A stretch of DNA of 64,000 nt from Tubulanus polymorphus (taxonomy: Eukaryota; Animalia; Nemertea), in contig NC_134031.1 of assembly GCF_964204645.1 (NCBI RefSeq), positions 10,790,088-10,854,087 on the forward strand. The letters are read 5' to 3'. The notes under the pieces were generated by a model. It was given only the letters and a program-made list of their open reading frames with translations, was not told the DNA's origin and searched no databases. Of the stretch, positions 20,932-58,869 are shown one piece after another. Positions within the stretch are counted from its first letter, which is position 1. Each line of letters starts with the position of its first letter. The position numbers were made by a program, and so were the translations under genes.

Positions 20932-22433
20932 ATGGAATCAGAACAACCACAAACTATCAATATTACAAATAACACTGGTGTCATAAACATATACTACAAG
21001 AAGTGTTCTAAATGTGAAATAGATAAATTCGCTATAACAGAATTTAATAAGCGTAAGATTAGCAAAGATGGTTTTCAATATTGCTGTAAAACTTGTACTA
21101 AACTATATACCAAACAATATCGAGAAGATAATAGAGAAGCTTACAATGATTATATGACAGAATATATGAGAGGAAAATATCAAACAGATCTTAATTTTTG
21201 ATTAAAACAATGTTTAAGATCTAGATTTACACAATTATTCAACAAAGAAACGCATTCAGAAACACTATCTAATTTATTAGGTTGTTCAGATAAATTTTTC
21301 ATATCATGGATAATATATCAATTCGACGATAAAATGAATATAGATAATTATGGTGAATACTTCCATATTGATCATGTGTTGCCGATTTCTAAATTTGACA
21401 TGAGTGATGATTATAATAAGAAGCTAATATGGAGCTGGAGAAATTTAAGACCTTTAGAAAAGAAGGAAAACATAATTAAATCTAACAAACTAGATATGAA
21501 ATTATATTTAGATCAACTGGATAAAGCAAAGACATTGGTTGAATTATGGAATTCAACACATAATGAAAAATACGTTGAAGCTTAAGCGCTTAGAAAACCG
21601 GTTACTCTCGATCTATGTCAAACCGCCTATATTTAATTGTATTAGGTTGTTTACAAAAACATCTGTGCCGCATTTTATATTCAGTTGAATGGGGTGTGCC
21701 TCATTTGAATATTGATCGAATGTGCTATTTCAGTTGAAAAGGATTAATCAATTACATCACAAAGGAACATCTGTTGCTCAGACAGTGTTTAGCTAGTGAA
21801 TAACTGGCAGTTATAAGCGCGCAGCACATAAGCATAGGAACGCATAGGATATTCTCTCTATAAACACAATTTTAGGAGTTTACAGTTATAAATGTAAGTA
21901 CTGTTTTTGTTGTTATTAAGGCGTCGGGAAACGTTAAGCATGTAAAACTTACCCTGGTAAGATGCGTCACAAATGGCCATGTTTAAGTGCTGTAATTAAT
22001 ATTTTACAACTACAACTTCAAGTTAGTTTTATTCTACACTAGATATTTATCTTTTAGATAACAAAATGAAGACCATTGAATCAAGAAAGTGAAGATGGAT
22101 GGATGTGGAATCAGAAATAATGGATATTTCAACTCATGAAACTGTAGCAGTTTAGCCTTACTGTATAGGCTTTCAATGCATTACGTTTGTCGGAATTTCA
22201 ATTGCGTCATTAAGCTGTTGTTAATGACACACAGTGACAGATGTTGTATTATACTTTATTAATTCCTGCATTCCACGCATACCTTACCGCTCCTGAGCCG
22301 AGCGGCTTGGAATGTGGAAATCGATAATTATCGTAGAATAAAATATATGTGTGTTTATGAAATAGTATTTCCACCAGTCGTTTCTTTGAATTTATTTTCA
22401 GTTTGAGGATTTATTATCGAGAATCCAAAATGA
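20932..22433 (+). pseudogene. Zn-finger/HNH endonuclease-like gene of Polinton A (premature stop; 827-bp insertion near 3' end)
   Basis: CSKC..CCKTC, HIDHVLP..NLRPL..EN..KSNK; homolog of 40019-40696. Confidence 0.75.
21581..22407. other. Unclassified 827-bp insertion in Polinton A
   Basis: Absent from B; removing it restores YVEGFIIENPK* (B: YVEEFDIKDPK*); higher GC than the element. Confidence 0.75.
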
Positions 22434-39578: not shown

Positions 39579-39771
39579 AGTAATAGGGGTTTAGTTGTTC
39601 TAGATCAAAGGTCGAACGGTCGAGAAATTTTCCTAATGTGAAAATAACAATAATTTCTACTTGAATTAGTCGCGCACACTCCTAATTCAAGTAGAAATTA
39701 TTATTATTTCACATTTGAAAAATTTCTCAACCATTCAACCTTTAACCTAGAACAACTAAACCCCTATTACT
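39579..39771. repeat. Left terminal hairpin of B (193 bp)
   Basis: ~91-bp arms around the loop TCGCGCACACTC. Confidence 0.95.
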
Positions 39772-40018
39772 CTTAAAATATTCATATGCATGAATAAAAT
39801 ATATATGAATAGCATTTAAATTGATAGATTATTCAATATAAAAGTGTGAGCTCTTATGGAATAGATATATAGATATATTTACAACATTATTTCAATATTT
39901 ATATTTGTATGAGTTAGATTTTTAAACATTAAAAGTGTTAGTAAAGTGTGATTGAAATAATTCATATATAAATCATTGAACTTCTAAAATCAATTTAGTA
40001 AAAAAATATGTATAATAG

Positions 40019-40696
40019 ATGGAATCAGAACAACCACAAACTATCAATATTACAAAAAACACTGGCGTCATAAATATATACTACAAGAAGTGTTCTAAGT
40101 GTGAATTAGATAAATTAGCTTTAACAGAATTTAGTAAGCGTAAGATTAGCAAAGATGGTTTTCAATATTGCTGTAAAACTCGTACTAAACTATATACCAA
40201 ACAATATCGAGAAGATAATAGAGAAGCTTACAATGATTATATGACAGAATATATGAGAGGAAGATATCAAACAGATCTTAATTTTAGATTGAAACAATGC
40301 TTAAGATCTAGATTAACACAATTATTGAACAAAGAAACGCATTCAGAAACACTATCTAATTTGTTGGGTTGTACAGATGAATTTCTCAAATCATGGATTA
40401 TATTTCAATTCGACGATAAAATGAATATAGATAATTATGGGGATTATTACCATATTGATCACGTGTTACCAATATCTAAATTTAACATGAATGATGAATA
40501 CAATAAAAAACTTATTTGGAATTGGAAGAATTTAAGACCTTTAGAAAAGAAGGAAAACATAATTAAATCTAATAAACTAGATTTACAGTTATATTTAGAA
40601 CAGTTAACAAAGGCAAAGAAATTTATTGATCAATGGAACAATGATCCAAATAATGAACAATACGTTGAGGAATTTGATATCAAGGATCCGAAATGA
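40019..40696 (+). CDS. Zn-finger/HNH endonuclease-like protein
   Basis: CSKC; HIDHVLP..WKNLRPL..ENIIKSNK. Confidence 0.8.
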   Translation: MESEQPQTINITKNTGVINIYYKKCSKCELDKLALTEFSKRKISKDGFQYCCKTRTKLYTKQYREDNREAYNDYMTEYMRGRYQTDLNFRLKQCLRSRLTQLLNKETHSETLSNLLGCTDEFLKSWIIFQFDDKMNIDNYGDYYHIDHVLPISKFNMNDEYNKKLIWNWKNLRPLEKKENIIKSNKLDLQLYLEQLTKAKKFIDQWNNDPNNEQYVEEFDIKDPK

Positions 40697-41000
40697 CTTA
40701 TCTGGACAGTTATAATTACTGCTCCTAATAGATAAACAAAAGTAGTGAGATATTAAATCCTAATTTAAATAAAAAGTATTTAAAAAACAATAACTTCAAC
40801 TAGCTAGTGAATTCTATTATATTTTCAATATTTTCTTTTCAAAAAGAGAATACTTTATATTTTGAATAGATTCAAATAGAAATTCTTTAAATTCAAATAG
40901 CTAGTATCAGTAGTCAATACTAGAATTCTTTAGCTTTAACTAGCTAGTATCATTTGAAGAATACTTATAATATTTTTTTTGCTTTTTTTCTCTAATATAA

Positions 41001-41609
41001 ATGTCAAAGAAATCTAATAAGAATAGTATTGATATTGAAAAGACATTAGATGATTTGGGTATAAGTGATAATAAAGATACAGTTGCAACTAATTGTGCTC
41101 AAGTTAATTGTAATATAGATTATGAATACTATTTATATTGTAAGCATCATCTAGAACTATTGATTGCCGGTGGAAAAACTAAACAATTTTTAACTAAGAG
41201 TATTACTTTTCAAGAATTAGATGCTATGAAACCAGATAAAGTAATAAAATATTTTAAGATTTATGAAGAAGGTAGATTATCCCGAATAAATGATTCTATT
41301 TCAGATGGTATTGTCAAATGTTATTCTAAGTTATGTAACCAGTTAATACCAATTAATGATGAAAATAAATTATATAGTGATTTAAAAAATGACTACTTAG
41401 TTATGACTGAATTACAAAAATGGGTTGGATATGCTTCATTTCAATTAGGATCGGTTATGACATTAATTTCTACTGGTGTCATAACATTTTCGAATATCAA
41501 GCCTATGGAATATAAATCAGGTAAGAATGAAACAGATGACGCTGTACTACAACCAAACGTCGAAACAGAAAATGAATCAGAACAAAAATTAACTAAAATA
41601 AATGAGTGA
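41001..41609 (+). CDS. Polinton B hypothetical protein
   Basis: Intact, conserved with A. Confidence 0.8.
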   Translation: MSKKSNKNSIDIEKTLDDLGISDNKDTVATNCAQVNCNIDYEYYLYCKHHLELLIAGGKTKQFLTKSITFQELDAMKPDKVIKYFKIYEEGRLSRINDSISDGIVKCYSKLCNQLIPINDENKLYSDLKNDYLVMTELQKWVGYASFQLGSVMTLISTGVITFSNIKPMEYKSGKNETDDAVLQPNVETENESEQKLTKINE

Positions 41610-41955
41610 TGGCGTTAAGAAAAAGGCTAGATCCGAGAAACAAATTAAATGGGCAAGAGAATTGGGTAAAAGATCTTCAGAATTAAAAAAAGCTAAGAAA
41701 AAGAAATTAACTGATATAAATGAATCACAGACTTTATCTGATATTGATTCAAATAATAATCCATCTAATTCTTCTAATAGTGGAAGAAATAATTACTTAT
41801 ATATTACAATTGGGTTAATCACAATTATTATATTATCCGGTGTAATATATAAATCAAAATTCAAATCTGATGATAAATATGATTCCAATGACAATAAACC
41901 TATCATACCAGAAAATAAATCAAATCATAAAGCCATTGAAACTAAATCTAAATAA
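41602..41955 (+). CDS. Basic single-TM protein
   Basis: Conserved with A. Confidence 0.75.
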   Translation: MSDGVKKKARSEKQIKWARELGKRSSELKKAKKKKLTDINESQTLSDIDSNNNPSNSSNSGRNNYLYITIGLITIIILSGVIYKSKFKSDDKYDSNDNKPIIPENKSNHKAIETKSK

Positions 41956-41976
41956 TTATTAATGGATTGAAATAAG

Positions 41977-43071
41977 ATGAAAAAAGAACAATATTTAAGA
42001 GAGTTATATTATAACCCAGAAAGTGAAGTATCATATTCTAGCGTTTCAGAATTATGGAATAAAATTAAATCTGATAAAGATAATGAAAATATAAAATATA
42101 GTGAATTGAAATCATGGTTAAAAAATCAACCAACATATCAAATCCACAAGAAAATGGATAAAACTTATTTAACAAGAAAAGTTATGGTTTCATATATCGA
42201 TCAACAATGGCAAGCAGATTTAATTGACATGAAGAACTTAGAGGAATACAACAAAGGATATTTCTGGATATTAAATGTTATAGACATATTCAGTAGATAC
42301 GCATGGTCAATTCCAATCAAAAATAAAACTGGAATAGAAGTGACAAATGCTTTTAAATCTATATTTAAAGAAGCTATTCCAGATAAGATACAATTTGATG
42401 AAGGTAAGGAATTTTATAACAAACATTTTAAAAAACTATTATCTGATAACGATGTAAAATATTTTTCAACACACTCAGATAAAAAAGCATCTATTATAGA
42501 AAGATTTAATAAAACATTGAAATCTAGAATGTGGAAATATTTTACTGCTAATGAAACATATAAATATATCGATGAGTCGATAAATATATTAGATGATTTG
42601 GTGAAAGGTTATAATAATTCTAAACATAGTTCTATAAATATGAAACCTATACAAGCTAGAAAAGAAGATAATTCGGAAATAGTTTGGAATAATTTATATG
42701 GAGCATTTGTTACACATGATTTCGGAGAACCTAAATTTGAAATTGGTCAACACGTTAGAATATCTAAATATAGAAAAACATTTTATAAAGGTTATACTCC
42801 AAATTTTACAGAAGAAATATTTAAAATTAAAAAGATAATATTAACTAAACCTTTTGTTTATAAATTAGAAGATCTAAAAGATGAAGAAATATTAGGTTAT
42901 TTTTATGAACAAGAATTATCACTTGTACCAAACCCAGATGAAATAGAATACAAAATAGAAAAAGTATTGAAAACAAAAACTCTTAAAGGAAAAAAGTATT
43001 CTTTGGTGAAATATAAAGGGTATGATGATAAATTTAATGAATGGATTTATCTAGTAAAATTAAAAGAATAA
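41977..43071 (+). CDS. rve integrase with chromodomain
   Basis: DDE motifs as in A; C-terminal chromodomain. Confidence 0.95.
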   Translation: MKKEQYLRELYYNPESEVSYSSVSELWNKIKSDKDNENIKYSELKSWLKNQPTYQIHKKMDKTYLTRKVMVSYIDQQWQADLIDMKNLEEYNKGYFWILNVIDIFSRYAWSIPIKNKTGIEVTNAFKSIFKEAIPDKIQFDEGKEFYNKHFKKLLSDNDVKYFSTHSDKKASIIERFNKTLKSRMWKYFTANETYKYIDESINILDDLVKGYNNSKHSSINMKPIQARKEDNSEIVWNNLYGAFVTHDFGEPKFEIGQHVRISKYRKTFYKGYTPNFTEEIFKIKKIILTKPFVYKLEDLKDEEILGYFYEQELSLVPNPDEIEYKIEKVLKTKTLKGKKYSLVKYKGYDDKFNEWIYLVKLKE

Positions 43072-43676
43072 ATGAATAAAGATTTATTTATATTTGAACC
43101 GCATAATATGTTAGTTACTGGAGTAACAAAGTGTGGTAAAACACATTTCATATTAGATTTGTTAGAAACTATTTATAAGAATCATTTTGATAATATAATA
43201 TTATTCTGTCCTCCTTATGAAATGAATAAAACATATAATAGAGATATAGTTAAGATAAAAAAGTTTATTATATTAGATCGTAAAACAGTAAAAGAAAATT
43301 TAGATAATTGTATTAAAATAGCAATTGATACATATAAAGGATCAAATACATTATTCATTATAGATGATTGCGCAAATTTACATGATTCAAAAGTGAGAGA
43401 AAGTGAGTTATGTTATTTAGCTTTCTCTGGAAGACATTTTGGGATAACAACATGGGTTTTAAATCAAAAATATAATTCAATTGTTAAAGACTTTAGGGAG
43501 AATATAAGATTTCTAGTTTTATTCTACAATAAAAATCTATGCAACAATCATTGGAAGAAAATCAAATTATACCTACTGAATTACATGATGAATATATGAA
43601 TAAATTAAAGAATAATAAAGGTTCAAAATTATTACTGAGACTACAATTTCCCTATGAATATAAATTTATAAAATAA
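43072..43676 (+). pseudogene. Packaging ATPase (FtsK/A32-like), late frameshift
   Basis: GVTKCGKT, IIDD, GRHFGITTWVLNQ. Confidence 0.9.
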
Positions 43677-44075
43677 CTATTTATATACCTATGTATTAGA
43701 TACCCTATTAGATACCCTAATACCTGATACCCCATTAGATACCCTAATACCTGATACCCTAATACCTGATACTCTATTAGATACCTTAAATACTTAAAAC
43801 CCCCTTTTTTAAAATAAATATTATTTATACAATTTTCAACCAATTTATTTTTTTTTTCAACAAATATATGAATAAGTTTGAAAATAATAAAGGTTATTCA
43901 TTATTACTGAGGTTTCAATATAAATTTAAAAAAGAAATATAATTTAAGGTATTTTCAAATAATATGTATTAGATATGTATTAGATATGTATTAGATATGT
44001 ATTAGATACCTTAAATACCTTAAATACTTAAAACCCCCTTTTTTATTTACTATTATTTTATACAATTTTCAACCT
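43607..44075. repeat. Repeat-rich convergent junction of B
   Basis: Degenerate duplication of the ATPase 3' end; GATACCC-based repeats 43699-43790; (TATGTATTAGA)x4 at 43963-44006. Confidence 0.8.
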
Positions 44076-44181
44076 TAATTATTATTTGATTGTTAGATAA
44101 TTAATTTCTGAATCACTTTCATCATCACTCTCCAATTCATTATCAGGCCCTAACAATTTATTCAAATGCTCTACCGTATCT

Positions 44182-44934
44182 TCATAAATTATTTTCTGAT
44201 TTAAGTTTCATAGAATCTTTATTATCAATGCGCTTTCCTGTATTTTCATTATTATCTTTATTAGTATTTGCTCCTAATATTTCATTTACAGTGTTTGATC
44301 CTAATATTTCATTACCATCGGTTAAATCTAATTCATCTTTATTAGGTGTTGCTAATAAAAAATCTTCATATAATTCTTTACCATTTACTTTTTTATTTGA
44401 AACAAATTTTGTAACATATCTAAATGGGTGTTCTATAAATTCTCTTAAACCAACACGTTCTATAACATTAGTAATATGTGAATTTGTATTCATATGTTTA
44501 TTCCAATTTGATGGAGCGTTTGAAAATTCACCTTTACAATAATCACAATAATTTCTATTTTTACTAACATTTAATATTATTGCATTATTATATGTAGAAG
44601 GTATTGCATTATTGTATGGAGAGGGTATTACATTATTAGATGTAGAAGGTATTACATTATTAGATGTAGTAGGTATTACATTATTAGATGTAGTAGGTAT
44701 TACATTATTAGATGTAGTAGGTATTACATTATTAGATGTAGTAGGTATTACATTACTTAAATTATCAACAACACCACTTTTATTATTATCGATTTCTATT
44801 AGTTTAGTTTTATAAATTTTGAAAATAGGATCAAATATCAAAGCTATATTACAAGGTATAACATAATATAAACCATCATTATTTTCATGTGTATCGATGT
44901 ATGGAATATGTTTATATACTTTACCTCCTTCCAT
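44182..44934 (-). CDS. 8-aa-repeat/zinc-finger protein of B
   Basis: (NNVIPTTS)n; CDYC..H..H; N-terminus nearly identical to A, C-terminus unrelated. Confidence 0.78.
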   Translation of the reverse strand: MEGGKVYKHIPYIDTHENNDGLYYVIPCNIALIFDPIFKIYKTKLIEIDNNKSGVVDNLSNVIPTTSNNVIPTTSNNVIPTTSNNVIPTTSNNVIPSTSNNVIPSPYNNAIPSTYNNAIILNVSKNRNYCDYCKGEFSNAPSNWNKHMNTNSHITNVIERVGLREFIEHPFRYVTKFVSNKKVNGKELYEDFLLATPNKDELDLTDGNEILGSNTVNEILGANTNKDNNENTGKRIDNKDSMKLKSENNL

Positions 44935-44966
44935 TTATTATATAAATTTTTATTAAAGTTAAAATT

Positions 44967-46192
44967 TTAATACATAACACTATTCAATTGAGAATTTACA
45001 ATATTTAATTGCGCGTCAGATATAATATAAATGTGCATTTTAAAATTTTTGATTCCTTCATTCTTTGTCATGAATAATTGTATTCCATCTTTAGTGTTTT
45101 GTAATTTTTTTCCAGAACCATGTAATGAATTATCCTCTGTTGTTCTAAAATCTAACCATAATGCATATTTATTACCGGTATAATAATCAATTTGATTAAT
45201 ATTACAATTTTCAGATGATTTCACTTTTTCATTCATAAAATGTTTTCTAATTTCTGGCCATTGATCTATCATTCTCATTCCTTGACAAAATATTTTATTT
45301 GCTATTCCTTCGATAGTTATTTCTACTTTTGTTATTTCAGGATTATAATAATTATCAACATTTATTGCGCCATTAGTATATGTTGCAATGGTAAAAAATA
45401 TTAATATACCTTTAATAGATCTACTTGGGAAGTTAATATTCTCATTAATAATTTCATCATTTGCATTAATAGTTACGGTTTTAAATTTATCAATATAATC
45501 ATATAATAATGAAAATCCTTGATTGTATTTAGTTTGAATTATACTTGAAATATTTTCATCAGTTACTGTATCATATTCTAAACATATATTCGATAATTTA
45601 TAACTCATATCTTTATTAACGCTAGATATTACAATTTCATTAACAGGAGCAAATGTTATTTCGAATATAACGTCTTCTTGAATTGCGTATTTATATAAAG
45701 GTGCATTATTATTTATCAATTCAAAGTCTAGTGGAATTTTATATTTGCTTCCATAAATCTTTTTTATCAAATTATCTACAGCATTAGTTACTACTGCATT
45801 ATTGGCTTCAGATCTTAATTTATTTTGGTTTTCTGATTGGATGCCTTGAAATATCATATTATTTCTATTTTCTTTAGTTAACCATAAATCTTTATATCTA
45901 ATGAGAAAACTGTTTCTGGACCAATCTTTATTGTTAACTTTTTAATCAAATATCTCCCAACATTATCAACAACATAATTATTATTATTACCGAGTACTTT
46001 TATATCGGCTGATAGATAAATACTATTTGGAACATAAAAAGTATTTTGTGTTAATCGAGGAATTCTAACATATAAAGTTTCATCGGGATTAATATTTGAA
46101 GGATTATGAGTAATTATATGATGTGATCTTTCTGCTTTAATAGCATTAGATATTCTATGATTCTTAGAAGGATTGATATAACTCCCACTCAT
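44967..46192 (-). pseudogene. Major capsid protein of B, disrupted near 45860-45900
   Basis: ORFs 45878-46192 and 44967-45857. Confidence 0.82.
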
Positions 46193-46209
46193 TTATTTAA
46201 CAAAAAAAT

Positions 46210-47648
46210 TAATTATTTATTTTTGATCATGTTTACTAACCCAAAAATAATAGCACTTACAACTGTAATTAAAAATAAAATAATATGTTCAGCAGCAAAG
46301 TTAATAATGTTTCCTGCAGATTTCAATATAAAACCAACAATTGATGCAATAACTCCTGGTAAAGCTGCAGCAGATTTTTAAGATAGTTCCCATAAATATT
46401 TTGCTAATTTTTTAAAACCATCTTTAACTTTATCTTGTATAGAATTATTATCATTCGGGGGTTTATCTGGTTTATTGGGAGTAGGAGTAGATTTCAAAGA
46501 ATTTGATATTGCTAAACCAATTGTTGTAAATAACATAGTTACAGCCGTTAGAATTGAAAGAATTGTTATTCCTTCAAACTTAAATAATAATTTTATTCTA
46601 TCTTTCAATGATATTTTAGAATTTGGTTTTATTAGATATCTTTTAAAAACATCTTTTAATCTATCAATATTATAATCATATGATTTTAATAATAATTCAA
46701 TTTCTTCTTTTTGTAATTCTATGTTATATTCTAAATCATCTTTTTCTTTTTCTAAATATGCATTTCTTTTTCTAAATTCATTTTCTTCAATAACTTAATT
46801 ATCTCTATCTAATTTTATTTTTTCTATTTCTTCATTTTTATCAGTTAATTCATCTTCTAAATTTCTAATTTTTAATCTCTTACATTTTTATCATGCATAA
46901 TTTTATACTAATAATTTCTCTAATTGCTTTATCAGAAAATATATCTAAATCTTCTAATTCTTGATCTGCTGCATCAAGTAATCCATTCGGTAAAAGTTTT
47001 TCAATTGGAACTTTATTTGATTTAAGTTTACTAGTTTTGGAAGTTTTATTCTGTTCAGAAGTTGTTTCTGGTTCTAAATTATTATCGATTGTTTCAAATA
47101 ATTTTTCAATTCTTTGTTTAAATACTCTTTCATTTTTAATAATTTCTTCTTGTGTTACATCTTCTATTTCATTACTATTTCTTATTCTCTTAATTCTATC
47201 TGGTTTTAAATTAAGCAAAGTTGATTCTGCTAATATTTTGTTTTTGTTTTTTATAAGAGATATCTATATATTAATCATCCTTCAAACGATAATAATATTC
47301 ACCATCTAAAAACTTTAAGTCTTGTACTAAAAGTCTAGCGCTTCTATCATTTATATTATATCCAGATTCTTTAAATACATGTTGAAAATCATACATAAAT
47401 TCAATATTTTCTAAATTTTGTCTTACTAAATCTGGATTTTCATTTTCAGTAGGTATTCTCCATTTAGCTCCTCTAATATATTCATCTGTTGATTGGCCTT
47501 TAGAACCACTATCTGCTAAATTAGAATTATATGCTGATTCATCATCATTATCAATATTAGTTTCTGCATCATTATAATCATCATCAATATATCCTTCATT
47601 ATTATTTCCCATGCCTTCCATTTCATAATCTTCTCCACCTTCTGCCAT
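46210..47648 (-). pseudogene. Coiled-coil/amphipathic membrane protein of B, frameshifted
   Basis: ORFs 47271-47648, 46880-47218, 46378-46608. Confidence 0.7.
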
Positions 47649-47663
47649 TTACATAATAAAAAA

Positions 47664-49064
47664 TTAAAATTTAAAATATAATATTCCTCCGATTACAATT
47701 CCTATACAGGTTATAGCTAATTTAGTATTTTCATGGGATTTATTATCATCATTTAGTTTAATTATTTCATGTTGAATAATATCAGTTTTAATATCTTCTG
47801 ATGTATTATAATCTTTTATTTTAGAATCATCATTTAATTTAATATTCTTAGTTTTAGTTTCTGTTGATTGAATGTGTTTTTTATTTTTTTCACCTTCCAT
47901 TAATTTTGGAGCAGTGATAATCTTTTTATTTATATCATTTAATCCAAATGAATTATTTATTGTTGCAGTTTTAATTAGATTATTATAACCAATTATGTTT
48001 CCCATCTTTAATACTAAATCATTAGAAATAATAGATAGATTAGGGCCTATACAATAATTTAATCTAATATGTGATTTATCTAAATAACTTTGATATCTTT
48101 GAAACAATGTTTTCCGGAATCGATCTATTTTTATCATTATGAATAGAATCTTCAAATAATACTTTGAATTGTTTCTGTGTATCAAATGATGTATTTAAAT
48201 TGTTATGTTTCCAATTATTGGGGATCTTGTTTCAACTTGCGCGCCTAGAATACATATCAAATAAGTTCTAATAGATTGATTTATTCTTTGTATACCTGAT
48301 TTTGTAAAACCTTCATTATTTTCTAAAATGAAATAAACCCAACCATTATTGTTTTCGTGTTTTAAATTATCATAAAATGTCGGTAATTTATTGAAATTTA
48401 ATGTTTCTAAATCCTTAGTTTCTATTTTACCATAACCTAATTTATTACTATAGATATTATAAAAACTATTAGATGGTATGGGAAGTGCACAATATTCTGC
48501 AATCTTTTTAGGGCAAGGAAGTGATCTTATTGTTCCAATTTTTGTTCTAAAATCAGAATTATTTATATCTATATTAAATTCATTACAAATTTTATAAAAC
48601 TTTGATAAATTAATATTATTATCTAATTCTTTAAAATATCTAGATCCTGGTAAAGCGCACTCTAATTCATTTAATATTATTCTGATTTGAAAGTATGTAT
48701 GAAATCTAAATAAACTTTGAATTAATTTATATTTAGAATTATTCAAATGATCATTCCAACTAATTCCACATCCTGTTGTTGCACAATAAACAGCAAAATT
48801 TAATTGGTTCTGCCAATACTTCATATTAGATTTTAATAACCATTGTTTTTCATCTTTCAATTTTTTAAAATCAATTAAATATACATGAAATATATTTTCC
48901 ATCTTTGCATTAAAATTATTAGTTTCAGTAACATAAATTTCTAAATTAGTTAATGAATCTAAAACTTCATTTCTATATGTAATATCTTTATTAAAATATA
49001 TTGCAGGAATATTATATTTAATTGATTTATTATATTGGAAAGCTTTTGGAAAACTATCTACCAT
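47664..49064 (-). pseudogene. Conserved hypothetical protein (WQNQLNFAVYCATTGCG) with C-terminal TM, frameshifted
   Basis: ORFs 48195-49064 and 47664-48185. Confidence 0.72.
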
Positions 49065-49080
49065 TTATATAATTAAAAAA

Positions 49081-49515
49081 TTAATAATTAACTAATTCTT
49101 TTAATAATTTATCTTGTTCTTCAACTGTTATATGGCCATTTAAACTTATTATATAATCTAGTGTATTCTTTAATTTATTAATTTCTTTTATATTAGTTTT
49201 AATTTTTTCTTTATTACTTTTTATATTTAATTTTGAACTTATACCAGTTAAAACACTTGAACTTAATCCTAATACACCAATTGATATAGCTAAAGGCGTT
49301 AATGGACTGAATATTGCTAGAAATGTTATTACAGAACTAATTGTAACCGAACCACTTATAATCAAATAATATATAATTTTAATTTTTAAATATTTTTTCT
49401 TTTTAACTTTTAAGTCACTTTCAAATTCTAATATTTGTTTTTCTAAATATGTTTTTAATTTAGTTTTATTTATATCATGAGGAATAATATCAATATTATC
49501 AACTTTATCATCCAT
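49081..49515 (-). CDS. Two-TM protein
   Basis: Hydrophobic hairpin flanked by basic helices. Confidence 0.75.
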   Translation of the reverse strand: MDDKVDNIDIIPHDINKTKLKTYLEKQILEFESDLKVKKKKYLKIKIIYYLIISGSVTISSVITFLAIFSPLTPLAISIGVLGLSSSVLTGISSKLNIKSNKEKIKTNIKEINKLKNTLDYIISLNGHITVEEQDKLLKELVNY

Positions 49516-49535
49516 TTATTTAGCAAAAAAAATTA

Positions 49536-49958
49536 CTAATTAGTAAACTTATATGCTACAAATATAACAATAACAGTTCCACCTAAAATCCAAATTATTT
49601 CATATTTCTTCTGTTCATTACTTGGGGTATAATAATCTGGTAATTCAGGTTTGTATAGATGTAATATTTCTTTATTGGTTACCACGTTATATAAACTCAT
49701 TGCATCATCAACTGATTGAAAATCTCTGTGTGAAATCTTCTGATCATATAATTCCTTGTTAATATAATCCATATAGTTTTGTCTCTTTTCTCTATATTCT
49801 TCTGCTGCTTTATTGTATTTCTCTAATGCTAAGTTATGTCTTTTTTGTTCTGTTAATGATCCATTTTTATCAATATGCTTAAATAAATAACCACCACCAG
49901 TAAATGCTAAAGCGTTAACAATTGCCGATCCTATAATAGTTATAATTGCAGAAGCCAT
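49536..49958 (-). CDS. Small conserved protein (GSAIVNALAFTGGGYLF..EQKRHNLA), C-terminal TM
   Basis: Intact ORF, conserved with A. Confidence 0.78.
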   Translation of the reverse strand: MASAIITIIGSAIVNALAFTGGGYLFKHIDKNGSLTEQKRHNLALEKYNKAAEEYREKRQNYMDYINKELYDQKISHRDFQSVDDAMSLYNVVTNKEILHLYKPELPDYYTPSNEQKKYEIIWILGGTVIVIFVAYKFTN

Positions 49959-49982
49959 TTATTTAGCAAAAAAATTATGCAT

Positions 49983-50203
49983 TTATATGGGAGGAATATA
50001 TTTTTGTTTTTCCAAATAATCAATAGTTAAATTAGATAAAGTAACTGCTAATGTTAATTTTAAAATATCATTTATATCAAATCTATCAACATTAACACTT
50101 CCCATTTTGAATACTTTTTTAATACCATTGAATAACCAACAGTTCCAACTGATAGTAATGCTCCATTATATAATGCAGTTATTATCCACTTATTATCACT
50201 CAT
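49983..50203 (-). pseudogene. Small hydrophobic protein (frameshifted homolog of 33311-33532)
   Basis: Sequence match to A. Confidence 0.7.
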
Positions 50204-50560
50204 TTATTTATCAAAAAAATTACTATCATCAAAATATTTAGTTATCTTATTTATGATTAATTCAACATTTATTTCATTACTAGTTTCATTTGTATATATT
50301 TCAATTATTATTTTTTTAATATCATCGATGATAAAATCTTCATCTAATTCATAAAATCTTAAAGATTCTCTAATTAAATTAGTAATCTTTTCTACATTTA
50401 AAGTTTCTTTATCTATTGTTGTTTCACACTCAAATGTTGTTTCATTAGAAAATGTAATATTTTTGATATGTGTAATTACATCATTAATGTAAAATTTCAT
50501 TTCTTTCTCATGTTTAAAATCAAACCCAAAACATATGCTCGGCCCAACAGTTATATTCAT
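50204..50560 (-). CDS. Acidic hypothetical protein
   Basis: Intact ORF with TAAATG start; conserved with A. Confidence 0.7.
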   Translation of the reverse strand: MNITVGPSICFGFDFKHEKEMKFYINDVITHIKNITFSNETTFECETTIDKETLNVEKITNLIRESLRFYELDEDFIIDDIKKIIIEIYTNETSNEINVELIINKITKYFDDSNFFDK

Positions 50561-50576
50561 TTATATAATGAAAAAA

Positions 50577-51331
50577 TTACTCTCTACATCTTATAACTAA
50601 TTCATAAATTACAGGAAAGTTATTCAAATCAATTAAATATCCATTGTGATTTCTTATTTCTAATTTAAAATTATTAAATTTAGGAATGCAAGGTTTAAAA
50701 TCACATTCTGTTAAATTATAATTTATTTGAGTTCCAAATTGTTTAACATTTTTTAGTGGTAAAATATCTAGTATACTAGAACTACAAATTGTTTCTTTAG
50801 TTGCTTCGAAAGTTTTGTAGGCTCGATTAAATTGCAATAAATATAAAAGTGTGTAAAAGGTATTATATTTGAGCTGCCTTCTGCGTTTCCAGTAACTGTA
50901 AGCGGTTTAATACCTCACATTTTAGCCAGTGGTTTGTTTACCATAAATTTATGTTGTTCATTAGATATCTTTATTCTAATTTTATTAGTACTATCAATTT
51001 TATTAAATTTAATTTCAGATACAGAAGTGCCCCCGATTTTCAACCGAGCTCTTCTATTAATTTCCTGCGCTAATGATTCTAAATTATATAATCCTGGTTT
51101 TAAAAATATATGAAACCATTTATCTTTATTTCTCATATAAATCATAAACCCTCTATGTTCAAAAGTTTTATCCGATACATTGTAAAAAGAATTACATAAA
51201 CTTATATTTACTAATTTTAAATCTACACAATTCTTAAATTCTCTATCTAATTGTACTAGTAAATTATGAGATTTATAATTTGTAAGTCTTCTAGAATCAA
51301 CAAATATTCTGTATTCTTTTAATTCTACCAT
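50577..51331 (-). pseudogene. Minor capsid (penton-like) of B
   Basis: ORFs 50915-51331 and 50577-50837; VDS..L.REF..LVNISLCNSFYNV..IDLNNFPVIYELVIR. Confidence 0.75.
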
Positions 51332-51345
51332 TTATTTTACATAGT

Positions 51346-51699
51346 TTATTCGAAATCTATTTCATGGTGGCCTTTTTTATGCTTACCTTTGTATACGAAA
51401 TAGAAATCACCAGAACATAATTCTTCTAAATCTTCACTTGATAATCTATGAAATCTATCTGGTAAATATGTTCTGAATTTATATGTATTTCCTTTTAATC
51501 CTTCATATTCTAAGTGTATAACTAATTTATCTCCATATTTGTTAGTAACTGTATCAATATTTGTAATTAGATATTTCTTATGGATTGTTAATTCTGGTAA
51601 CTTTTTGAATTTATAATCTACAGATTTTACATTTGTGATATCTTTTATTCTATCTAGAAATAATTTGTTGTTCTCACTGTTTGCTTGTTTACTCTCCAT
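51346..51699 (-). CDS. Putative OB-fold ssDNA-binding protein
   Basis: KKLPEL..KY.IT....NKYGDKLVIHL..TYLPDRF pattern; adjacent to pPolB. Confidence 0.55.
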   Translation of the reverse strand: MESKQANSENNKLFLDRIKDITNVKSVDYKFKKLPELTIHKKYLITNIDTVTNKYGDKLVIHLEYEGLKGNTYKFRTYLPDRFHRLSSEDLEELCSGDFYFVYKGKHKKGHHEIDFE

Positions 51700-51728
51700 T
51701 TATAATACATGTTTTTATTAAAATTTGA

Positions 51729-54700
51729 TTAACACGTTAGAATTCTTTTCATTATTTCCTTCTCTTTTGTTTCTTCTCTTTTAAATTTTAAGTATTCATC
51801 TAAATTGCAACCATATGCAACTGTATGAATTCCATCATCTAAAATATATCTTTTATCATCAAATGGGTTTAGACTTATCTTTTCAATTTCTTCAATAAAC
51901 ATTTCATGATCTTCAGATCTTAAACATCTCATCTTATGTTTTCTAACTTCTTCATTGAATATACAATTGATGTAATCTTTGAAATGAATATTCTTTTCTA
52001 CTACACTTTTGGTTATTCCTTTTAACTTTTTAGCTTCATGTTCTTTAGTTTTATATGAATACATTTTAGATCTAATACCGATGAATTCAATCATTTCTTC
52101 ACCGCCTAATTCATCCTTAAACTTCCCTGGAACTTTTTTATTATCATTGCTAAACAATTCATGATCTTTAGGATAGTTACTAAAATCAAAATGATGTTTT
52201 AATGTTTTTAAATCATCAGTTATGTTATCAGTTTTTATCTTTAATATGTAAGAATCGGTATCAAAATATAATATTTCTATATGTTTTTCTCCAAAAAGTG
52301 GTTGTAATACGTTATAATAGAATTCATACATCAATAGCTTTGATATTTCTAAAACTGAAGCGCCAACATAGATTGGTTTATTAAATTTCATTGATGTTCT
52401 TCTCATCTTAACTGCAGCTAAATTTTCATCAAATATTCTGTTACCAATGAACTAAGGATATGATTGTAAATGTCTAATTCTTTTTCCATTACTAACTAAC
52501 TCAATATCATTTCTATTTCTAATATTTTCACAAGTCTTACCATAGAATGCATTATTCATTAACTTGAAGAAATCTTTCTCGAAATCAGTTTTAGCTTCAG
52601 TTCTCTGTTTGGTGTTAAAATCTATATATTTTTCTAACCACTTAGATTGACTAAATGAAATATATCTATGTACTTTTTTTAGAATCATTCCTTGATTCAA
52701 ATAAAACTTCAACATTCTATAATGTACTACATAATTATATTTATCTTCTTGAGTTACCATTAACTTTTCTGCATGAATAAGATTTTCGGGTTTAATTCTT
52801 TTTTGGTAATTTGATAATTCTTCATGAGTTACAGTTTTATGTTCGGGACAGTAAGCTAGATTTCTAGATTTAAATTTAATATGTTCAGGATATTCTAAAT
52901 CTACAACGAAGAAGTAACCAGTATCTGAATCATCTGCAATATCTAGAATTCTTTTCTTCCAATCAAATTTATCATTATTTTCATTCTGTAAAACTTCAGT
53001 TATTTGAAATACTCCATAAGGTTGTGGTTCCATCATTGCCCAACCATACAAATTATTTGCATCTATATATAATAACTTATATCCAGGGTTATCATTTACA
53101 TTGAAATATCTATCACCTAATACACCCGAAACTCCTCCTCTTATAGATTTTTCAAATAATAGTAATTGATCTATATTTGTTAACAAATCCATTTTTATAT
53201 CTGTAAGTTTTAATCCACAATCCCATGTTAAACCTGGTGATGAATAACAATGACAAGGATCAATGTTAAAATATTTTAGGTTTACATCTCTAAACCTTTC
53301 GAATAGATCAGTTAATAATAATACATCTGATTTTAGATATAAATCTACTAATTGCCCATGATTTTCTATTTTGAAATGATTCCAAATATTCAATGTTCTA
53401 TTATATACTTCATCTTTAACATATTCATTTTTTAATTCATCATAGAATTGTTCTTTTAATAATTCAGTTATATTGAAATCATTATGTGATTTATAAAATG
53501 AATATGGAATTGCTCCTTAACATCTCATTAATTGAAAATCATCATTATTTGGGTAATATTCTTTTAATATTTTTAATTCAGCATCAACTAATGATTTTGA
53601 TAAGTTATCTAATGAACTATTTAAAAATCTATATGAATCTATAAATCTTAAACACCCAAATTGGACTTATATATAATTCTCAGATGTTTTAGCTAACATT
53701 CTAAATTTATAAGTTGGTATTTTATCTTTTGATCTATTTGAATTTAATCTTTCTATTTCATTATTAATTTCTTCTATTTTATGGCATAACTGTTTGATGA
53801 ATAAATGTGCATCATATCCTGATAGATTATGAAATATAACTGGAACAAAGTTAATTTTCTTAGCTTGTAAGTTAAAATTCTCATGTGCGGCACCTCTAAA
53901 CTTTCCATTCAAATGATCATGGTCTCTTACTTTTTTATCTTTATAATTAAATATCTTTTCACAATAATAACATTTATCTGCAAACGCAAATTCTTCTTTA
54001 TCTTCTTCTGTCATTATAATTTCTATATTTGTATTCAATAATTTACTAAATCTTATTTCATATTCAATTAATAAGTCACAAAAATGATTGATAACATTTT
54101 CATTTCTATAATCATAATATTCACTTTCAATTAGTTCTGGATAATCAGATTTAATATATAACCCGAAAGCTGCAGCTGATTGATGAATCTTTTTAATAGT
54201 ATTTGTTTTTGGTGGTTCTTCAGAATAATCATTTTCATTAGAATTTAATTTCTTTCTCTTATAATATATTTCTTTTCTATCTTGATCGGTTAATTCTTTA
54301 TTTAATGATTCAAAATCTCCATATATAACAAATGGTACTTTATTTCTGTAATCATATTTTTTGAATTCTAATATTTTATCTTTTTCATTTGGTAAAACTA
54401 ATTTACAATAATCATGATTTTCACATAATTGTTTATGATTTAATAATGCACTTTCAGTTCTGAATTTATGTAAACATTTTCTACATAGATATATTTTATT
54501 ATCAAAATCATTTTCTGATTTAAAAAATAAATCGATTCTTTTAATCCACATATAATGATTCTCATAATATATTATATCTATAACATCGTTTGAATCATAA
54601 TCTTTTGATAGATATAAAGGTTCTAATGTATAATGTTTTATATTGTTACCTTTTGTATTCGGTAATTTGATTAAATCAAATACATTTATCTTTATATTAT

Positions 54701-55753
54701 TATCTCTTTCTATCTTTTAATTCTAACAGGATACTTATCTATCTTATAATTATTTTCAAATGGTTTATAATGAGTTAATCTACAAATATTATAAGTTGCA
54801 GGATGTAAACAACTTATCATAGTCCATAGAAAACATTTATCATCTTCATTTTGTACATTTATAACAGCATTAGTTTTAAATGGTAGTTTAATATAACTCG
54901 ATGCTTCAATATCTGGTTCTTTATAATATGATACATTATTTTCATCAATCGGTTTTGATTTAGTTAACTTATTATATTTTGTGTTATAAACATGTAAAGT
55001 CATAAATATTATTTCATCAAATATTAAACCAGATCCTTCAAAATATTTCTCTTCTATTTTAGTTTTTACTTCATTATAACATTTATCTAATTTATCATCT
55101 ATATGTTGTTTAGATATAATATGTTGTGAATGAGAATTTATATTATATATTGGTTTATCTTCAGATTTTATAAACTTTACTTTAAATTATATACTAATTT
55201 TAGGATATTCAACATCAGTTATTATTTTTATTATTTCTTTCATATTTTCTAAATGTTTTTTATTTTCTTCTAATGTTTTTCCTTTATGAAATTTAAACTC
55301 GATAGCTGCTGGGCCAATATCACTTTTAAATGCTTCGGTTATCTCTATATCTTTTTTATTATCTAATGAATTAATATAATTTCTTACATCTTCCATGTAT
55401 GGTCTTTTATTGTTTAATTTATTTTTTATGCTTTTAATTGTCTTCTGTTTCTTATCATTATCTTTATCAAAATAATCTTCACCTAAAATATCATTATTCT
55501 TATTTCTAATATGGCTTTTTGATTTTAAATGTTCATTATAATATCTTTTATCACTGAATGATTGATTACATGTATCACATTTGTATGTTTCTTTTTCAAT
55601 CTTTAATTCATCTAATTTAGTTTCTAATATATCATCTTTATCTTCTAGTTACAATTTATTCTCTAAATGTGTTTTAGTTTTATTGTGTCTTGCTTTTTGG
55701 GATTTATCTATATTGATATTACATGTTGGACACTAGTACTTATTTGCTTCCAT
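51729..55753 (-). pseudogene. Protein-primed family B DNA polymerase with N-terminal Zn fingers and endonuclease VII-like insert, frameshifted
   Basis: YGDFES, FHNLSGYD, LYIDANNLYG, KLMNNAFYGK, YFDTDS; CYYC..VRDHDHLNGKFRGAAH. Confidence 0.95.
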
Positions 55754-55986
55754 TTTAATACTAAATTTTTTATTAAAATTGATTTTAGAAGTTCAATGAT
55801 TTATATCATGTATTATTTCAATCACACTTTACTAACACTTTTAATGTTTAAAAATCTAACTCATACAAATATAAATATTGAAATAATGTTTAAAATATAT
55901 CTATATATCTATTCTATAAGAGCTTACACTTTTATATTGAATAATCTGTCAATTTAAATGTTATTCATGTATATGATTATTTTAAG

Positions 55987-56179
55987 AGTAATAGGGGTTT
56001 AGTTGTTCTAGGTTAAAGGTTGAATGGTCGAGAAATTTTCCAAATGTGAAATAATTATAATTTCTACTTGAATTAGGAATGTGCGCGACTAATTCAAGTA
56101 GAAATTATCGTTATTTTCACATTTGGAAAATTTCTCGACCGTTCGACCTTTGATCTAGAACAACTAAACCCTTATTACT
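55987..56179. repeat. Right terminal hairpin of B (193 bp)
   Basis: Reverse complement of 39579-39771 and self-complementary. Confidence 0.95.
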
Positions 56180-58869
56180 GATGACTTTGAAATCTCATGG
56201 AATTACGAGCATTCTGGTATAATGGAGAAGAATTTAGAAATTAAACGAGACTTACCTGTAAGTTGAAGTTTGATTGTAATTCTTCGGAATTATACCAGAT
56301 GCGAGTGATTACATGCCCGCCCTTTTCTAATGCCCACCCATCTCGCATCTGGGTTTGTGTTAGAATATTATTTTTTCTTCTGTGTTTCATACAGATTAAT
56401 TTAAGAATTCTCGCATCTTTTTCGTTTTTATTGCGAAACGAATTTCATGCTTTTCTTTTACATCTATCTTGCCTCTTTAAGACTTTGAATAGTGACGTAA
56501 CGGAAGTAGCCTCAATCTCATGTAATCACTCGCATCTGGTATAATTCCGAAGAATTACAATCAAACTTCAACTTACAGGTAAGTCTCGTTTAATTTCTCA
56601 ATTAAATCGCTTGAAATCCGGATTTTTAATGCATACAGGCAGCATAATGAGGAAAACCCATTCACAAACCGTGCAAGGCAACTTAAACACTATGAGTATG
56701 CTCAATATTCCCTGCAAGACACAAAATATCTTATTTGAACGTTCATGTATAAAAGTAACATGGAGCAACTTTTATTTTGTCAACACGTTGATGGGCGACG
56801 GACTATGTCACTATGGTATTCTCTGAAGGAGGTAAATTAAATTTGACAGCTAGTTATATAAATGATGCAGCTTTTGGACAAAAGGGATCTAACTAAATTT
56901 CTTTTTAATTCACTGTGGAATGGAATGGAATGGAATGGATTGACGCCAATGGCATGCAGTAGGCCCCTACGTATGGGTCATACTAATTAGCGTCAACCAA
57001 TTAATCTAAATCGGGCAAACCATTCAACAACTGTGAATAATTAATTTGCTGTGGCGTGATAATAATTAGTTTTTTTGAAGAAATGACATACCAACTGTTA
57101 GAAAAATGTACCGATTCTTATTTTTAGACTACTACTGAATCTATAAAAGGAGGAGTCATAGACAAAGTTGATTTGCTTAGCTGGAGACACTTCTTGTCTA
57201 GTACATCATCTCAAGTACTGGGTGTTTTGTAAGTTTCAGTATTTATTTACTAAGTGCTGTTTTCTTGGACCTCAGGGCTTTCAAACTAGGCCCACCCCAT
57301 AGGCTATATAGTCCAGGGTGTATTAGCCACTATTCTTTTATATCCTACTAAAATGCACCTTTTTCTATTTTTAGATTCAGGCTTAGAATGTGCAAATTTT
57401 TTGAGATACTGAGAAATCAGATGGCACCAGTAAACTTCAACTGCGAAATTTGCAGCAGGATAGCTGAACGACACAATTTTTAAAAATAAAATGGCTATTC
57501 GAATGCTATTTCAATAATAACTTGATTCAACCAGAGAGAAATAAGTAAATTGCGGATGTACAGTACACCCACTTTTCTTCCCTGTTTCCTGGTACCAAAT
57601 TTTTAGTCTTAAGCTAAGCGATATTCTAAGGTATGCTAGTGGATTTCATTAGAATATGAAGCAATGGAACCAGAATTCTAGCCAGAGTTAAGCGAACTAT
57701 TGATTCTGATATAATGTAAGAACTGATTTCCTTTGTGTACTCTTGCAGAATATGTTACGTATTATTTCAAGCTGTTAAATAATATAGTTAGACAAACGTC
57801 CAATTATTGGATCTTTCTTGTTGACTCGTTTAATTTTGTGAGTTAAGAGTTCAAGTCAATCCACAATGTGCAGTGCCTAGCCTTCATCTACACTAAAGCC
57901 AAGCCTGTGTATGGGAAAATATCATTCGACTCCTATAGGCCAGACAAATCAAAGCATGCAATACATTGCAGATAGTAGTCTCCGGCAAGTCGAAAGAGAA
58001 AGTAAACCAGGTTCCGGGAACAAAGACACTTAAAGACTCCTTCCTCCTTGTAGAAATTGTAGAAATATGGCACCCAATCGTAGCAATGCTAAGTACAGTA
58101 TACTATGACGGTTGAACCTTTATTAACGAATTTCAATGACACCGAAAATAGAATCAAAATAATCATTAGTTCCGTGCTAGCACTTAATTTGGGTTATCAG
58201 GTTCAGCCTAACTGTACTTTCATTCAGCTACTACTTGTATGAGACTTGGCAATGATAAGTTGCAAGAAATCACCAAACATAAGAAAAAATATTGTGAATT
58301 AATATTACTGTAATTAAGAATGTATGCCAATGAAGTGATAACTTCATTGTTAGATCGTACCGGTATATGCACATAAAACTATGGCAAAAAAAAAACACAT
58401 CTAACAATCCACGCAATCCGCAATCGATCAAGTCGATCATGACAACGACCTTAAGGCATGTCTCTGTAACCGAAGGTAGAGCATAAAACACGGTTCAGGA
58501 CTCGTCAGCGGACACCGGCCCTGAAAACATTTCAAAACGTGTATTGTCGGTACCTAGCACGATTTCAGCGTTTTTCGGGAATTCCCTGAAATTTCGGCAT
58601 TTTTCGGAAATTCCCTGAAATTTCAGCGTTTTTATTTCAGCGTTTCAGCTTTTCAGTGTTTCAGCTTTTTCAGCGAAGTTCAGGAACCGCTGTAACAATA
58701 TCTGTAATTAGATATTTCTTATGGATTGTTAATTCTTTTTACTTCTTAAATTTATAATCTACTGATTTGACATTTGAAGTATCTTTTATTCTATCTAAAA
58801 ATAATTTGTTGTTCTCACTGTTTGCTTGTTTACTCTCCATTTATAATATATATTTTTATTAAAATTTGA

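What the first reader, a model, noticed from the sequence alone, without database searches (positions are those of the whole stretch)
44934..55785. Second promoter class (TTTAATAAAAA-N9-TAAA) marks replication/non-structural genes
Seen on the minus strand of B: pPolB TTTAATAAAAA-ATTTAGTAT-TAAAATG; SSB-like TTTAATAAAAA-CATGTATTA-TAAATG; Zn-finger protein TTTAATAAAAA-TTTATATAA-TAAATG, all with a 9-nt spacer. The HNH gene has the variant TTTAGTAAAAA-N11. None has a T-run. Established: poxvirus intermediate promoters have an A-rich core about a helical turn before a TAAA initiator. Inference: a two-step cascade, with replication genes intermediate and virion genes late.
Basis: partly seen in the sequence, partly recalled or inferred. 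Interest (0 to 1): 0.8.

Follow-up and report, generated by a model that had tools for sequence, protein, structure and literature searches.

The report
Polinton with two poxvirus-style promoter classes
A virus-like element integrated in this genome starts almost all its genes at a poxvirus-type TAAATG signal preceded by either a T-run or an A-rich box, which likely means it borrows a co-infecting poxvirus's transcription machinery in two stages, although the A-rich class is not confined to replication genes.

Summary
The motif is real. TTTAATAAAAA-N9-TAAA sits at the pPolB, SSB-like and Zn-finger starts of a decayed Polinton (39579-56179): 3 sites against 0.02 in local shuffles. It recurs at 4 starts in independent relatives, each 14 nt before ATG. 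The HNH variant is only the other terminal-repeat copy of the pPolB promoter. The larger picture: 41 of 45 curated starts use TAAA(A)TG. This marks one capsid clade (55 of 65 ORFs), is rare in 36 other Polintons (12 of 291) and other large DNA viruses (66 of 812), and is common in poxviruses (356 of 728). The T-run lies where the poxvirus late T-run lies. The A-run lies where the intermediate L4R and G8R cores lie. Head-to-head gene pairs sharing one A/T tract copy the L3L/L4R layout. Best reading: likely a parasite read by a poxvirus-type helper polymerase, with A-box genes intermediate-like and T-run genes late-like. The 'replication versus virion' split fails: 3 of 10 versus 1 of 11 (p=0.31), and the SSB-like and penton-like orthologs differ in class between elements. 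No expression data were obtained.

The parts
39579..56179 (.). Polinton/Maverick copy B, about 23% GC, with 449-bp terminal inverted repeats (91% alike) and a 6-bp target-site duplication GATGAC; several genes carry stops or frameshifts
55751..55777 (-). Class II (A-box) promoter of pPolB: TTTAATAAAAA-N9-TAAAATG, inside the right terminal repeat
51697..51722 (-). Class II promoter of the 117-aa OB-fold, SSB-like gene (51346-51699)
44932..44957 (-). Class II promoter of the Zn-finger gene next to MCP; same class in the L002, L004 and L005 orthologs
39994..40021 (+). Class II variant (TTTAGTAAAAA-N11-TAGATG) of the HNH/EndoVII-like gene; the left-repeat copy of the pPolB promoter
60232..60258 (+). 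Class II pPolB promoter in copy C
58838..58863 (-). Class II SSB-like promoter in a partial copy
20907..20934 (+). Class II HNH promoter in copy A, with TAAATG
46190..46210 (-). Class I (T-run, late-like) promoter of the major capsid gene
   Evidence: homologs hit Capsid_N weakly
47646..50580 (-). Six further class I T-run + TAAATG starts (50560, 50203, 49958, 49515, 49064, 47648), mostly membrane or unknown genes
40980..41003 (+). Class I start of the conserved 202-aa gene
51329..51350 (-). TAAATG start of the penton-like gene, A-rich and without a T-run; its L001 ortholog has the strict class II box
43050..43074 (+). TAAATG start of the A32-like ATPase, with an A-rich core inside the integrase 3' end
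41580..41604 (+). TAAATG start of the second 117-aa gene, with an A-rich core inside the upstream gene
41977..43071 (+). rve integrase with chromo domain; no TAAA at its start (AAGATG)
51729..55753 (-). pPolB gene, broken into several open stretches

Best explanation
This Polinton clade starts nearly every gene at TAAA(A)TG with either a T-run or an A-rich box one helical turn upstream, and these are likely late-type and intermediate-type promoters that would be read by the RNA polymerase of a co-infecting poxvirus-type helper, since no polymerase or transcription factor was detected in the element. Shown: the two sequence classes, their fixed spacing to TAAA, their conservation in relatives and their positional match to poxvirus promoters. 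Inferred: TAAA is the initiator, with slippage giving 5' poly(A) leaders; A-box genes (pPolB and HNH through the terminal repeat, the Zn-finger gene, and more loosely the ATPase and penton-like genes) would switch on first with the helper's intermediate factors; T-run genes (MCP, membrane proteins) would follow with late factors. The class follows the timing a gene needs in a given element, not a fixed replication-versus-virion rule. pPolB would use the intermediate class because a parasite without packaged early factors would meet it first (my inference from poxvirus biology).
For: TAAA(A)TG at 41 of 45 curated starts versus 6-11% of other ATGs. It marks one MCP clade (support 100/99): 55 of 65 ORFs, versus 0 of 10 in the sister group, 12 of 291 in 36 distant Polintons and 4 of 45 in the AT-rich ones among them, so base composition does not explain it. 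Poxvirus loci: 356 of 728 ORFs; other large DNA viruses: 66 of 812. Poxvirus orthologs: TAAATG at 132 of 154 intermediate, 148 of 228 late and 6 of 167 early starts. Class I T-run at -13..-8 versus the pox late T peak at -11..-7 (PMC11980589 gives T at -10). Class II A-run at -14..-10 versus L4R A-run at about -14..-7; class II TTT at -21/-20 versus G8R TTTAAATAA at -21/-20. Head-to-head TAAATG pairs that share one tract, T on one strand and A on the other, occur in L009, L010, L011 and L015, as in pox L3L(late)/L4R(intermediate); none in 36 distant Polintons. Distance from box to ATG is 13-15 nt at 10 of 10 sites, whereas distance to the upstream stop is 9-84 nt or there is no upstream gene. 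No TBP, TFIIB, VLTF or RNA polymerase Pfam hit among the ORFs scanned, and no tblastn hit to poxvirus loci. Precedent: virophages and Gezel-14T share helper promoters (10.1101/2022.07.28.501842); PLVs occur with entomopoxviruses (PMC11296320).
Against: No transcript, start-site or helper evidence was obtained. The strict box is absent from all six pox intermediate genes sampled and occurs once in an early-gene promoter. The pox profile is weak (leave-one-gene-out 10 of 14 correct) and largely measures T versus A near -10, the feature that defines the classes, so it is close to a one-bit match. Function and class are not associated (p=0.31). MCP has an A-run rather than a T-run in L007 and L011. 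Strict class II was seen only in the AT-rich subclade, in 3 independent sites of B plus 4 in relatives. A few non-pox viral loci also reach 40-50% TAAATG (L234, L224, L227). Several ORFs remain unidentified and could be divergent transcription factors. Lack of AATAAA depletion in coding DNA did not separate this clade from other Polintons. The window copies are decayed, and the host is unknown.
Confidence: 0.5

Rival explanations
1. Same poxvirus-type read-out but one temporal class: the A-box is only an alternative or weaker core of a single post-replicative promoter, and it sets level rather than timing.
For: Orthologs differ in class (SSB-like, penton-like, HNH, MCP). No link to function (p=0.31). 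A- and T-tracts are the two strands of one tract in head-to-head pairs.
Against: The same two-strand layout separates a late from an intermediate gene in poxviruses (L3L/L4R). The Zn-finger ortholog keeps the box in B, L002, L004 and L005 although the proteins are only 31-48% identical.
Confidence: 0.2
2. Nuclear transcription by host RNA polymerase II, helped by an element-encoded factor (for example the Zn-finger protein or an unrecognised TBP-like protein) that reads the boxes; the poxvirus likeness is convergent.
For: The element integrates in the nucleus (rve integrase, target-site duplication). Unchecked AI notes describe TBP-encoding Polintons with private boxes. The Zn-finger gene is the most stably class II gene.
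Against: No TBP or TFIIB hit. A TATA-like box 10-20 nt before the initiator, with ATG fused to it, does not fit the usual 25-30 nt Pol II spacing (established knowledge). Coding strands hold 3-5 AATAAA per kb without depletion, although that test was not discriminating.
Confidence: 0.17
3. The helper is a non-poxvirus cytoplasmic large DNA virus that also uses a TAAA initiator.
For: 8 of 80 other large-virus loci have at least 30% TAAATG starts, the highest 5 of 10. Yeast cytoplasmic elements use a TAAAN initiator with their own polymerase (PMC6211774).
Against: The median is 0 among those 80 loci, the T-run + TAAATG pairing is rare there, and the shared-tract head-to-head layout is frequent only in poxviruses. 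The sample covers only loci hit by one RNA polymerase motif.
Confidence: 0.08
4. The box is a polyadenylation signal (AATAAA/AGTAAA) of the upstream gene, and TAAATG is a stop-start junction or an AT-rich translation context.
For: At the SSB-like and Zn-finger sites of B the hexamer lies 9-12 nt after the upstream stop. Two starts in B abut a stop codon.
Against: Three sites have no upstream gene on that strand. The distance to the stop is 9-84 nt while the distance to ATG is 13-15. AATAAA follows 10 of 26 stops within 60 nt, about the 33% of control windows. AT-rich distant Polintons lack TAAATG.
Confidence: 0.05

Closest known systems
Poxvirus intermediate and late promoters (vaccinia G8R, L4R; L3L)
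   Same: TAAA(T) initiator fused to ATG; T near -10 in one class and an A-rich core without it in the other; same positions; head-to-head pairs sharing one A/T tract.
   Different: The strict TTTAATAAAAA box is not found in the six intermediate genes sampled. The carrier is a 16.6-kb integrating Polinton with no detected polymerase or factors. No early class was recognised. In vaccinia the polymerase and SSB (I3L) genes are early.
Mavericks/Polintons (Polintoviricetes; adintoviruses, PMC8502044)
   Same: pPolB, rve integrase, A32-like ATPase, major and penton-like capsid genes, terminal inverted repeats, 6-bp target-site duplication.
   Different: No Ulp1/adenain protease detected. Clade-specific TAAATG promoters, which 36 of 38 distant Polinton loci lack. 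About 190-nt palindromes at both tips.
Helper-dependent virophages and PLVs (mavirus/CroV, Sputnik/mimivirus, Gezel-14T/PgV)
   Same: A small integrating or satellite virus carries the promoter motifs of a large cytoplasmic virus and lacks its own polymerase.
   Different: Known cases mimic Imitervirales early or late motifs in protists. Here two post-replicative poxvirus-type classes are mimicked, and dependence on a helper is not shown.
Entomopoxvirus-associated PLVs (PMC11296320)
   Same: Polinton-like elements proposed as poxvirus hyperparasites.
   Different: Those have divergent capsids, and either no integrase or a tyrosine recombinase. The main text has no promoter analysis ('motif', 'upstream', 'transcription': 0 hits; supplements not examined). 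Relatedness to this clade was not tested.
Yeast cytoplasmic virus-like elements pGKL1/2 (PMC6211774)
   Same: Polinton-derived, AT-rich, TAAAN initiator with slippage-made 5' poly(A) leaders.
   Different: They encode their own RNA polymerase and capping enzyme, and have no capsid or integrase.

Membership tests
Poxvirus intermediate-class promoter | TAAA initiator just upstream of the start codon | tested here: met
   TAAATG or TAAAATG at 11 of 12 class II sites; HNH of B has TAGATG
Poxvirus intermediate-class promoter | No T at -10; A/T-rich core about 15-19 nt upstream (PMC11980589) | tested here: met
   A at -10 in 11 of 12; only A or T at -17..-10 in all 12; pox-trained score intermediate-like at 7 of 8 (weak classifier)
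Poxvirus intermediate-class promoter | Sequence identity with a known intermediate core | tested here: inconclusive
   Strict box in 0 of 6 intermediate genes sampled; G8R has TTTAAATAA at the same position and L4R an A-run at the same position
Poxvirus intermediate-class promoter | Active with intermediate factors and without late factors; 5' poly(A) leader | not testable with these tools
   No RNA data obtained; needs a bench assay
Poxvirus late-class promoter (class I sites) | TAAATG with T at -10 inside a T-run | tested here: met
   T at -11 and -10 in 30 of 30 class I sites (class picked by a T-run); T-run at 23 of 41 real starts versus 4 of 123 non-start sites
   3 of 10 versus 1 of 11, p=0.31; in relatives alone 0 of 6 versus 1 of 8; SSB-like and penton-like orthologs differ in class
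Maverick/Polinton (Polintoviricetes) | pPolB and rve integrase | tested here: met
   rve E 1.5e-9; polymerase homologs hit PF03175 at E 5e-17 and 1e-9
Maverick/Polinton (Polintoviricetes) | Terminal inverted repeats and 6-bp target-site duplication | tested here: met
   449-bp repeats at 91% identity; GATGAC on both sides
Maverick/Polinton (Polintoviricetes) | A32-like ATPase, major and minor capsid proteins | tested here: met
   Pox_A32 E 8e-12; MCP homologs hit Capsid_N below cut-off, E 7e-4 to 0.02; penton label inferred from size and Atlas neighbours
Maverick/Polinton (Polintoviricetes) | Ulp1/adenain maturation protease (group 1) | tested here: inconclusive
   No hit among the ORFs scanned; several ORFs are unidentified or broken
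Helper-dependent virophage-like element | No own RNA polymerase; shares promoter motifs with a large cytoplasmic virus | tested here: met
   No polymerase hit; motif comparison
Helper-dependent virophage-like element | Replication shown to need co-infection with the helper | not testable with these tools
   Host and helper unknown
Single-stranded DNA-binding protein (117-aa gene) | OB fold like that of SSBs | tested here: inconclusive
   Model pLDDT 82; best Foldseek rows are SSBs at E 0.03-0.08; VIA Z up to 5.6, OB folds of mixed function; phi29-SSB clusters at 0.84

The most novel reading that the evidence does not exclude
A whole clade of integrating Polintons are endogenous poxvirus parasites that have copied both post-replicative poxvirus promoter classes, intermediate and late, including the shared-tract bidirectional layout. 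They would run a borrowed two-step cascade, and their promoters would betray undiscovered poxviruses of their hosts.
Probability: 0.4. Interest if true: 0.85.

Novelty: new variant of a known kind. Interest (0 to 1): 0.66.

Why it matters
How animal-type Mavericks/Polintons are transcribed, and whether they need a helper virus, is open; no virions have been seen (10.64898/2026.06.19.733378, passage). A clade-wide poxvirus-type promoter code makes the question directly testable with short promoter reporters and 5'-end sequencing. It would extend virophage-style promoter mimicry to poxviruses and to the intermediate class. It also gives a sequence signature for sorting Polintons into helper-dependent and autonomous ones. 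I found no description in the held library: searches polinton+entomopoxvirus+promoter, TAAATG with maverick/polinton/adintovirus, polinton+promoter motif+poxvirus+helper, TAAAT+polinton (2 papers, neither on this). Most subscription papers are not searched.

Tried and rejected
AATAAA depletion as a sign of nuclear versus cytoplasmic transcription: family ratio 0.91, distant Polintons 1.01-1.02, so not discriminating; only the small group L013/L016-L019 was depleted (9 versus 16.0). TTTTTNT early-terminator depletion: 13 versus 38.8, but TTTTTNV is depleted too (49 versus 78.7), as are T5 runs in other Polintons; inconclusive. MCP-profile scans of viral and genome contigs found nothing. Single-sequence fold of the SSB-like protein failed (pLDDT 44). 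PDB sequence searches for MCP, pPolB, the 118-aa ortholog and the 202-aa protein gave nothing useful. The Zn-finger homolog search returned only itself. No whole genome is held, so copies outside the window were not examined. No RNA evidence was obtained, which leaves start sites, leaders and timing open. The primary papers on vaccinia intermediate promoters (PMC3196450, PMC3438937, PMC241297) are not held; I relied on reviews and on my own comparison of poxvirus loci. Rejected: polyadenylation signal, stop-start coupling, base composition alone, and counting HNH as an independent site.


Full report
What the locus is. The window holds several copies of an AT-rich element (about 23% GC) in 30-40% GC flanks. 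Copy B runs from 39579 to 56179. It has 449-bp terminal inverted repeats (91% alike) and a GATGAC duplication on both sides. It encodes an rve integrase and an A32-like ATPase, a pPolB whose homologs hit PF03175, an MCP whose homologs weakly hit Capsid_N, a penton-like protein (label inferred), an HNH/EndoVII-like protein and an OB-fold protein whose best fold rows are SSBs at non-significant E-values. It is a decayed Maverick/Polinton. The host is not determined; an animal is probable from the homologs' labels.

The observation. The three sites are as described. The 11-mer occurs 6 times in 64 kb: five at these starts or their copies and one by chance in coding DNA. In shuffles of B alone the bare 11-mer is barely significant (23 of 500 reach 3), while the form with N9-TAAA is not reached (0 of 500). 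Because that pattern was read off these sites, I tested it out of sample. A scan with an MCP alignment gave 19 related loci. In L001-L004 (L005 left out as a near-copy of L004), 4 of 20 TTTA[AG]TAAAA matches precede a start, each with ATG 14 nt later (p 2e-7). They serve the Zn-finger orthologs of L002 and L004, and the penton-like gene and another Zn-finger gene of L001. The HNH variant lies on the plus strand and is the other terminal-repeat copy of the pPolB promoter, so it is not an independent site.

The wider code. 41 of 45 curated starts in B and L001-L004 use TAAA(A)TG, against 6-11% of other ATGs. Aligned on TAAA, class I has a T-run at -13..-8 and class II an A-run at -14..-10 behind TTT at about -21..-19. 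Against 123 non-start TAAA(A)TG sites, the T-run (23 of 41 versus 4) and the strict box (7 of 41 versus 1) are both enriched. A looser AAAAT core marks 5 of the 12 remaining starts versus 4 of 118 controls, so class II probably has weaker members; several of the unclassed starts (ATPase, 117-aa gene) lie inside upstream coding DNA. The trait is clade-specific: 55 of 65 ORFs in 16 loci of one MCP clade (support 100/99), 0 of 10 in the sister group, and 24 of 312 in 38 distant Polinton loci, or 12 of 291 without L150 and L162.

Comparison with poxviruses. A recalled RNA polymerase motif fetched 36 poxvirus loci and 120 other large-virus loci, of which the 80 with flanks were counted. TAAATG starts 356 of 728 poxvirus ORFs and 66 of 812 others; 8 of the 80 reach 30% or more. 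I labelled poxvirus orthologs by synteny, Pfam and the class table of PMC11980589 (section 4, part 2), and left out loci above 45% GC. The late profile peaks in T at -11..-7. A profile of 6 intermediate against 8 late genes scores 7 of 8 class II sites as intermediate-like and 18 of 22 class I sites as late-like. The classifier is weak (10 of 14 in leave-one-gene-out) and mostly reads T versus A near -10. The strict box is in none of the six intermediate genes. G8R has TTTAAATAA from -21/-20 and L4R an A-run at about -14..-7. L4R (intermediate) and L3L (late) share one tract read from both strands. The same layout occurs in L009, L010, L011 and L015 and in none of 36 distant Polintons.

Function of the marked genes. 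Strict class II marks 3 of 10 non-structural and 1 of 11 virion or packaging starts (p=0.31), and 0 of 6 versus 1 of 8 in relatives alone. The L001 SSB-like ortholog (32% identity) and kinase have T-runs, HNH in L004 has a T-run, and the integrase of A, B and L002 has no TAAA start. MCP has a T-run of 5 or more in 7 of 14 loci with a usable start, and an A6 run in L007, L011 and L016. In vaccinia the polymerase is early, and D13L and A32L are intermediate. The most stable class II gene is the Zn-finger gene, whose function is unknown. pPolB starts were seen only in this window.

Mechanism. Shown: two sequence classes tied to TAAA, and no detected polymerase or transcription factor. Established: TAAAT is where poxvirus post-replicative transcription starts, with slippage-made 5' poly(A) (PMC4542343, passages; PMC6211774, passages). 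Also established: virophages and Gezel-14T carry helper promoter motifs (10.1101/2022.07.28.501842, passages), and plasmid-borne genes in infected cells were used to separate intermediate from late genes (PMC11980589, passage). Inferred: the element is read in the cytoplasm by a poxvirus-type helper, A-box genes first and T-run genes later. How an integrated copy would reach the factory is not explained. I give this 0.5. Rivals: one class without timing 0.2, host Pol II with an own factor 0.17, a non-pox helper 0.08, a polyadenylation signal 0.05. The last fails because the box keeps 13-15 nt to ATG at 10 of 10 sites while the upstream stop is 9-84 nt away or absent. Two composition tests meant to support cytoplasmic transcription did not discriminate.

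What is known. PLVs occur with entomopoxviruses (PMC11296320; abstract and term passages, no promoter terms found in the main text; supplements not examined). PMC8502044 has no hit for 'promoter'. PMC5294985, PMC11161782, PMC11788076 and 10.64898/2026.06.19.733378 were seen as passages. Searches (listings only) showed no report of poxvirus-type promoter classes in Polintons. An unchecked AI note on another genome (e1-8580207) has the same helper idea and is not independent support; its claim of a poxvirus polymerase subunit was not met in the ORFs scanned here. Notes on TBP-encoding Polintons supplied the Pol II rival.

Verdict. Observation confirmed with corrections; interpretation partly supported. 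It is a new variant of a known kind: helper-promoter mimicry, here of both poxvirus post-replicative classes. Interest 0.66; 0.85 if helper dependence and the two steps are shown.

Noticed in passing
window 55987-56179 and 39579-39771: Both tips of element B are near-perfect palindromes of about 190 nt (DNA fold -71.6 kcal/mol, z -19.8). Copies A and C have different palindrome interiors inside similar outer arms.
   Followed up: partly
L001:10340-10981: A relative encodes a deoxynucleoside kinase (PF01712, E 1.7e-31) behind a T-run promoter; its closest hits among the viral loci held are non-pox large viruses.
   Followed up: partly
L009:368, L010:2015, L011:240, L015:786: Compact head-to-head TAAATG gene pairs, 18-24 nt apart, share one A/T tract like poxvirus L3L/L4R; in L015 the ATPase sees A8 and MCP sees T8.
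   Followed up: yes
L150, L162: Two distant Polintons (29-36% pPolB identity) also start most genes at TAAA(A)TG (7 of 7; 10 of 14), which suggests a second origin or a wider spread.
   Followed up: no
L013, L017, L019: The sister group of the clade lacks TAAATG (0 of 10); the pooled set L013/L016-L019 has fewer AATAAA than expected (9 versus 16.0). A possible nuclear-transcribed relative.
   Followed up: partly
window 35734-39521: A DIRS-type retroelement (reverse transcriptase, RNase H, tyrosine recombinase) lies between copies A and B.
   Followed up: no
window 20340-35000, 58690-64000: At least three further decayed or partial copies, 86-95% identical to B, cluster in the window; copy A has an internal 1.6-kb duplication.
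   Followed up: partly
window 44480-44827 and 26192-26539: A 24-nt tandem repeat lies in frame inside the Zn-finger gene; orthologs carry different repeats at this place.
   Followed up: no
window 43600-44180: The gap between the converging ATPase and Zn-finger genes holds short tandem repeats and a duplicated GGTTGAAAATTGTATAAA unit.
   Followed up: no
P0163: A pPolB homolog carries an intein with a LAGLIDADG domain.
   Followed up: no
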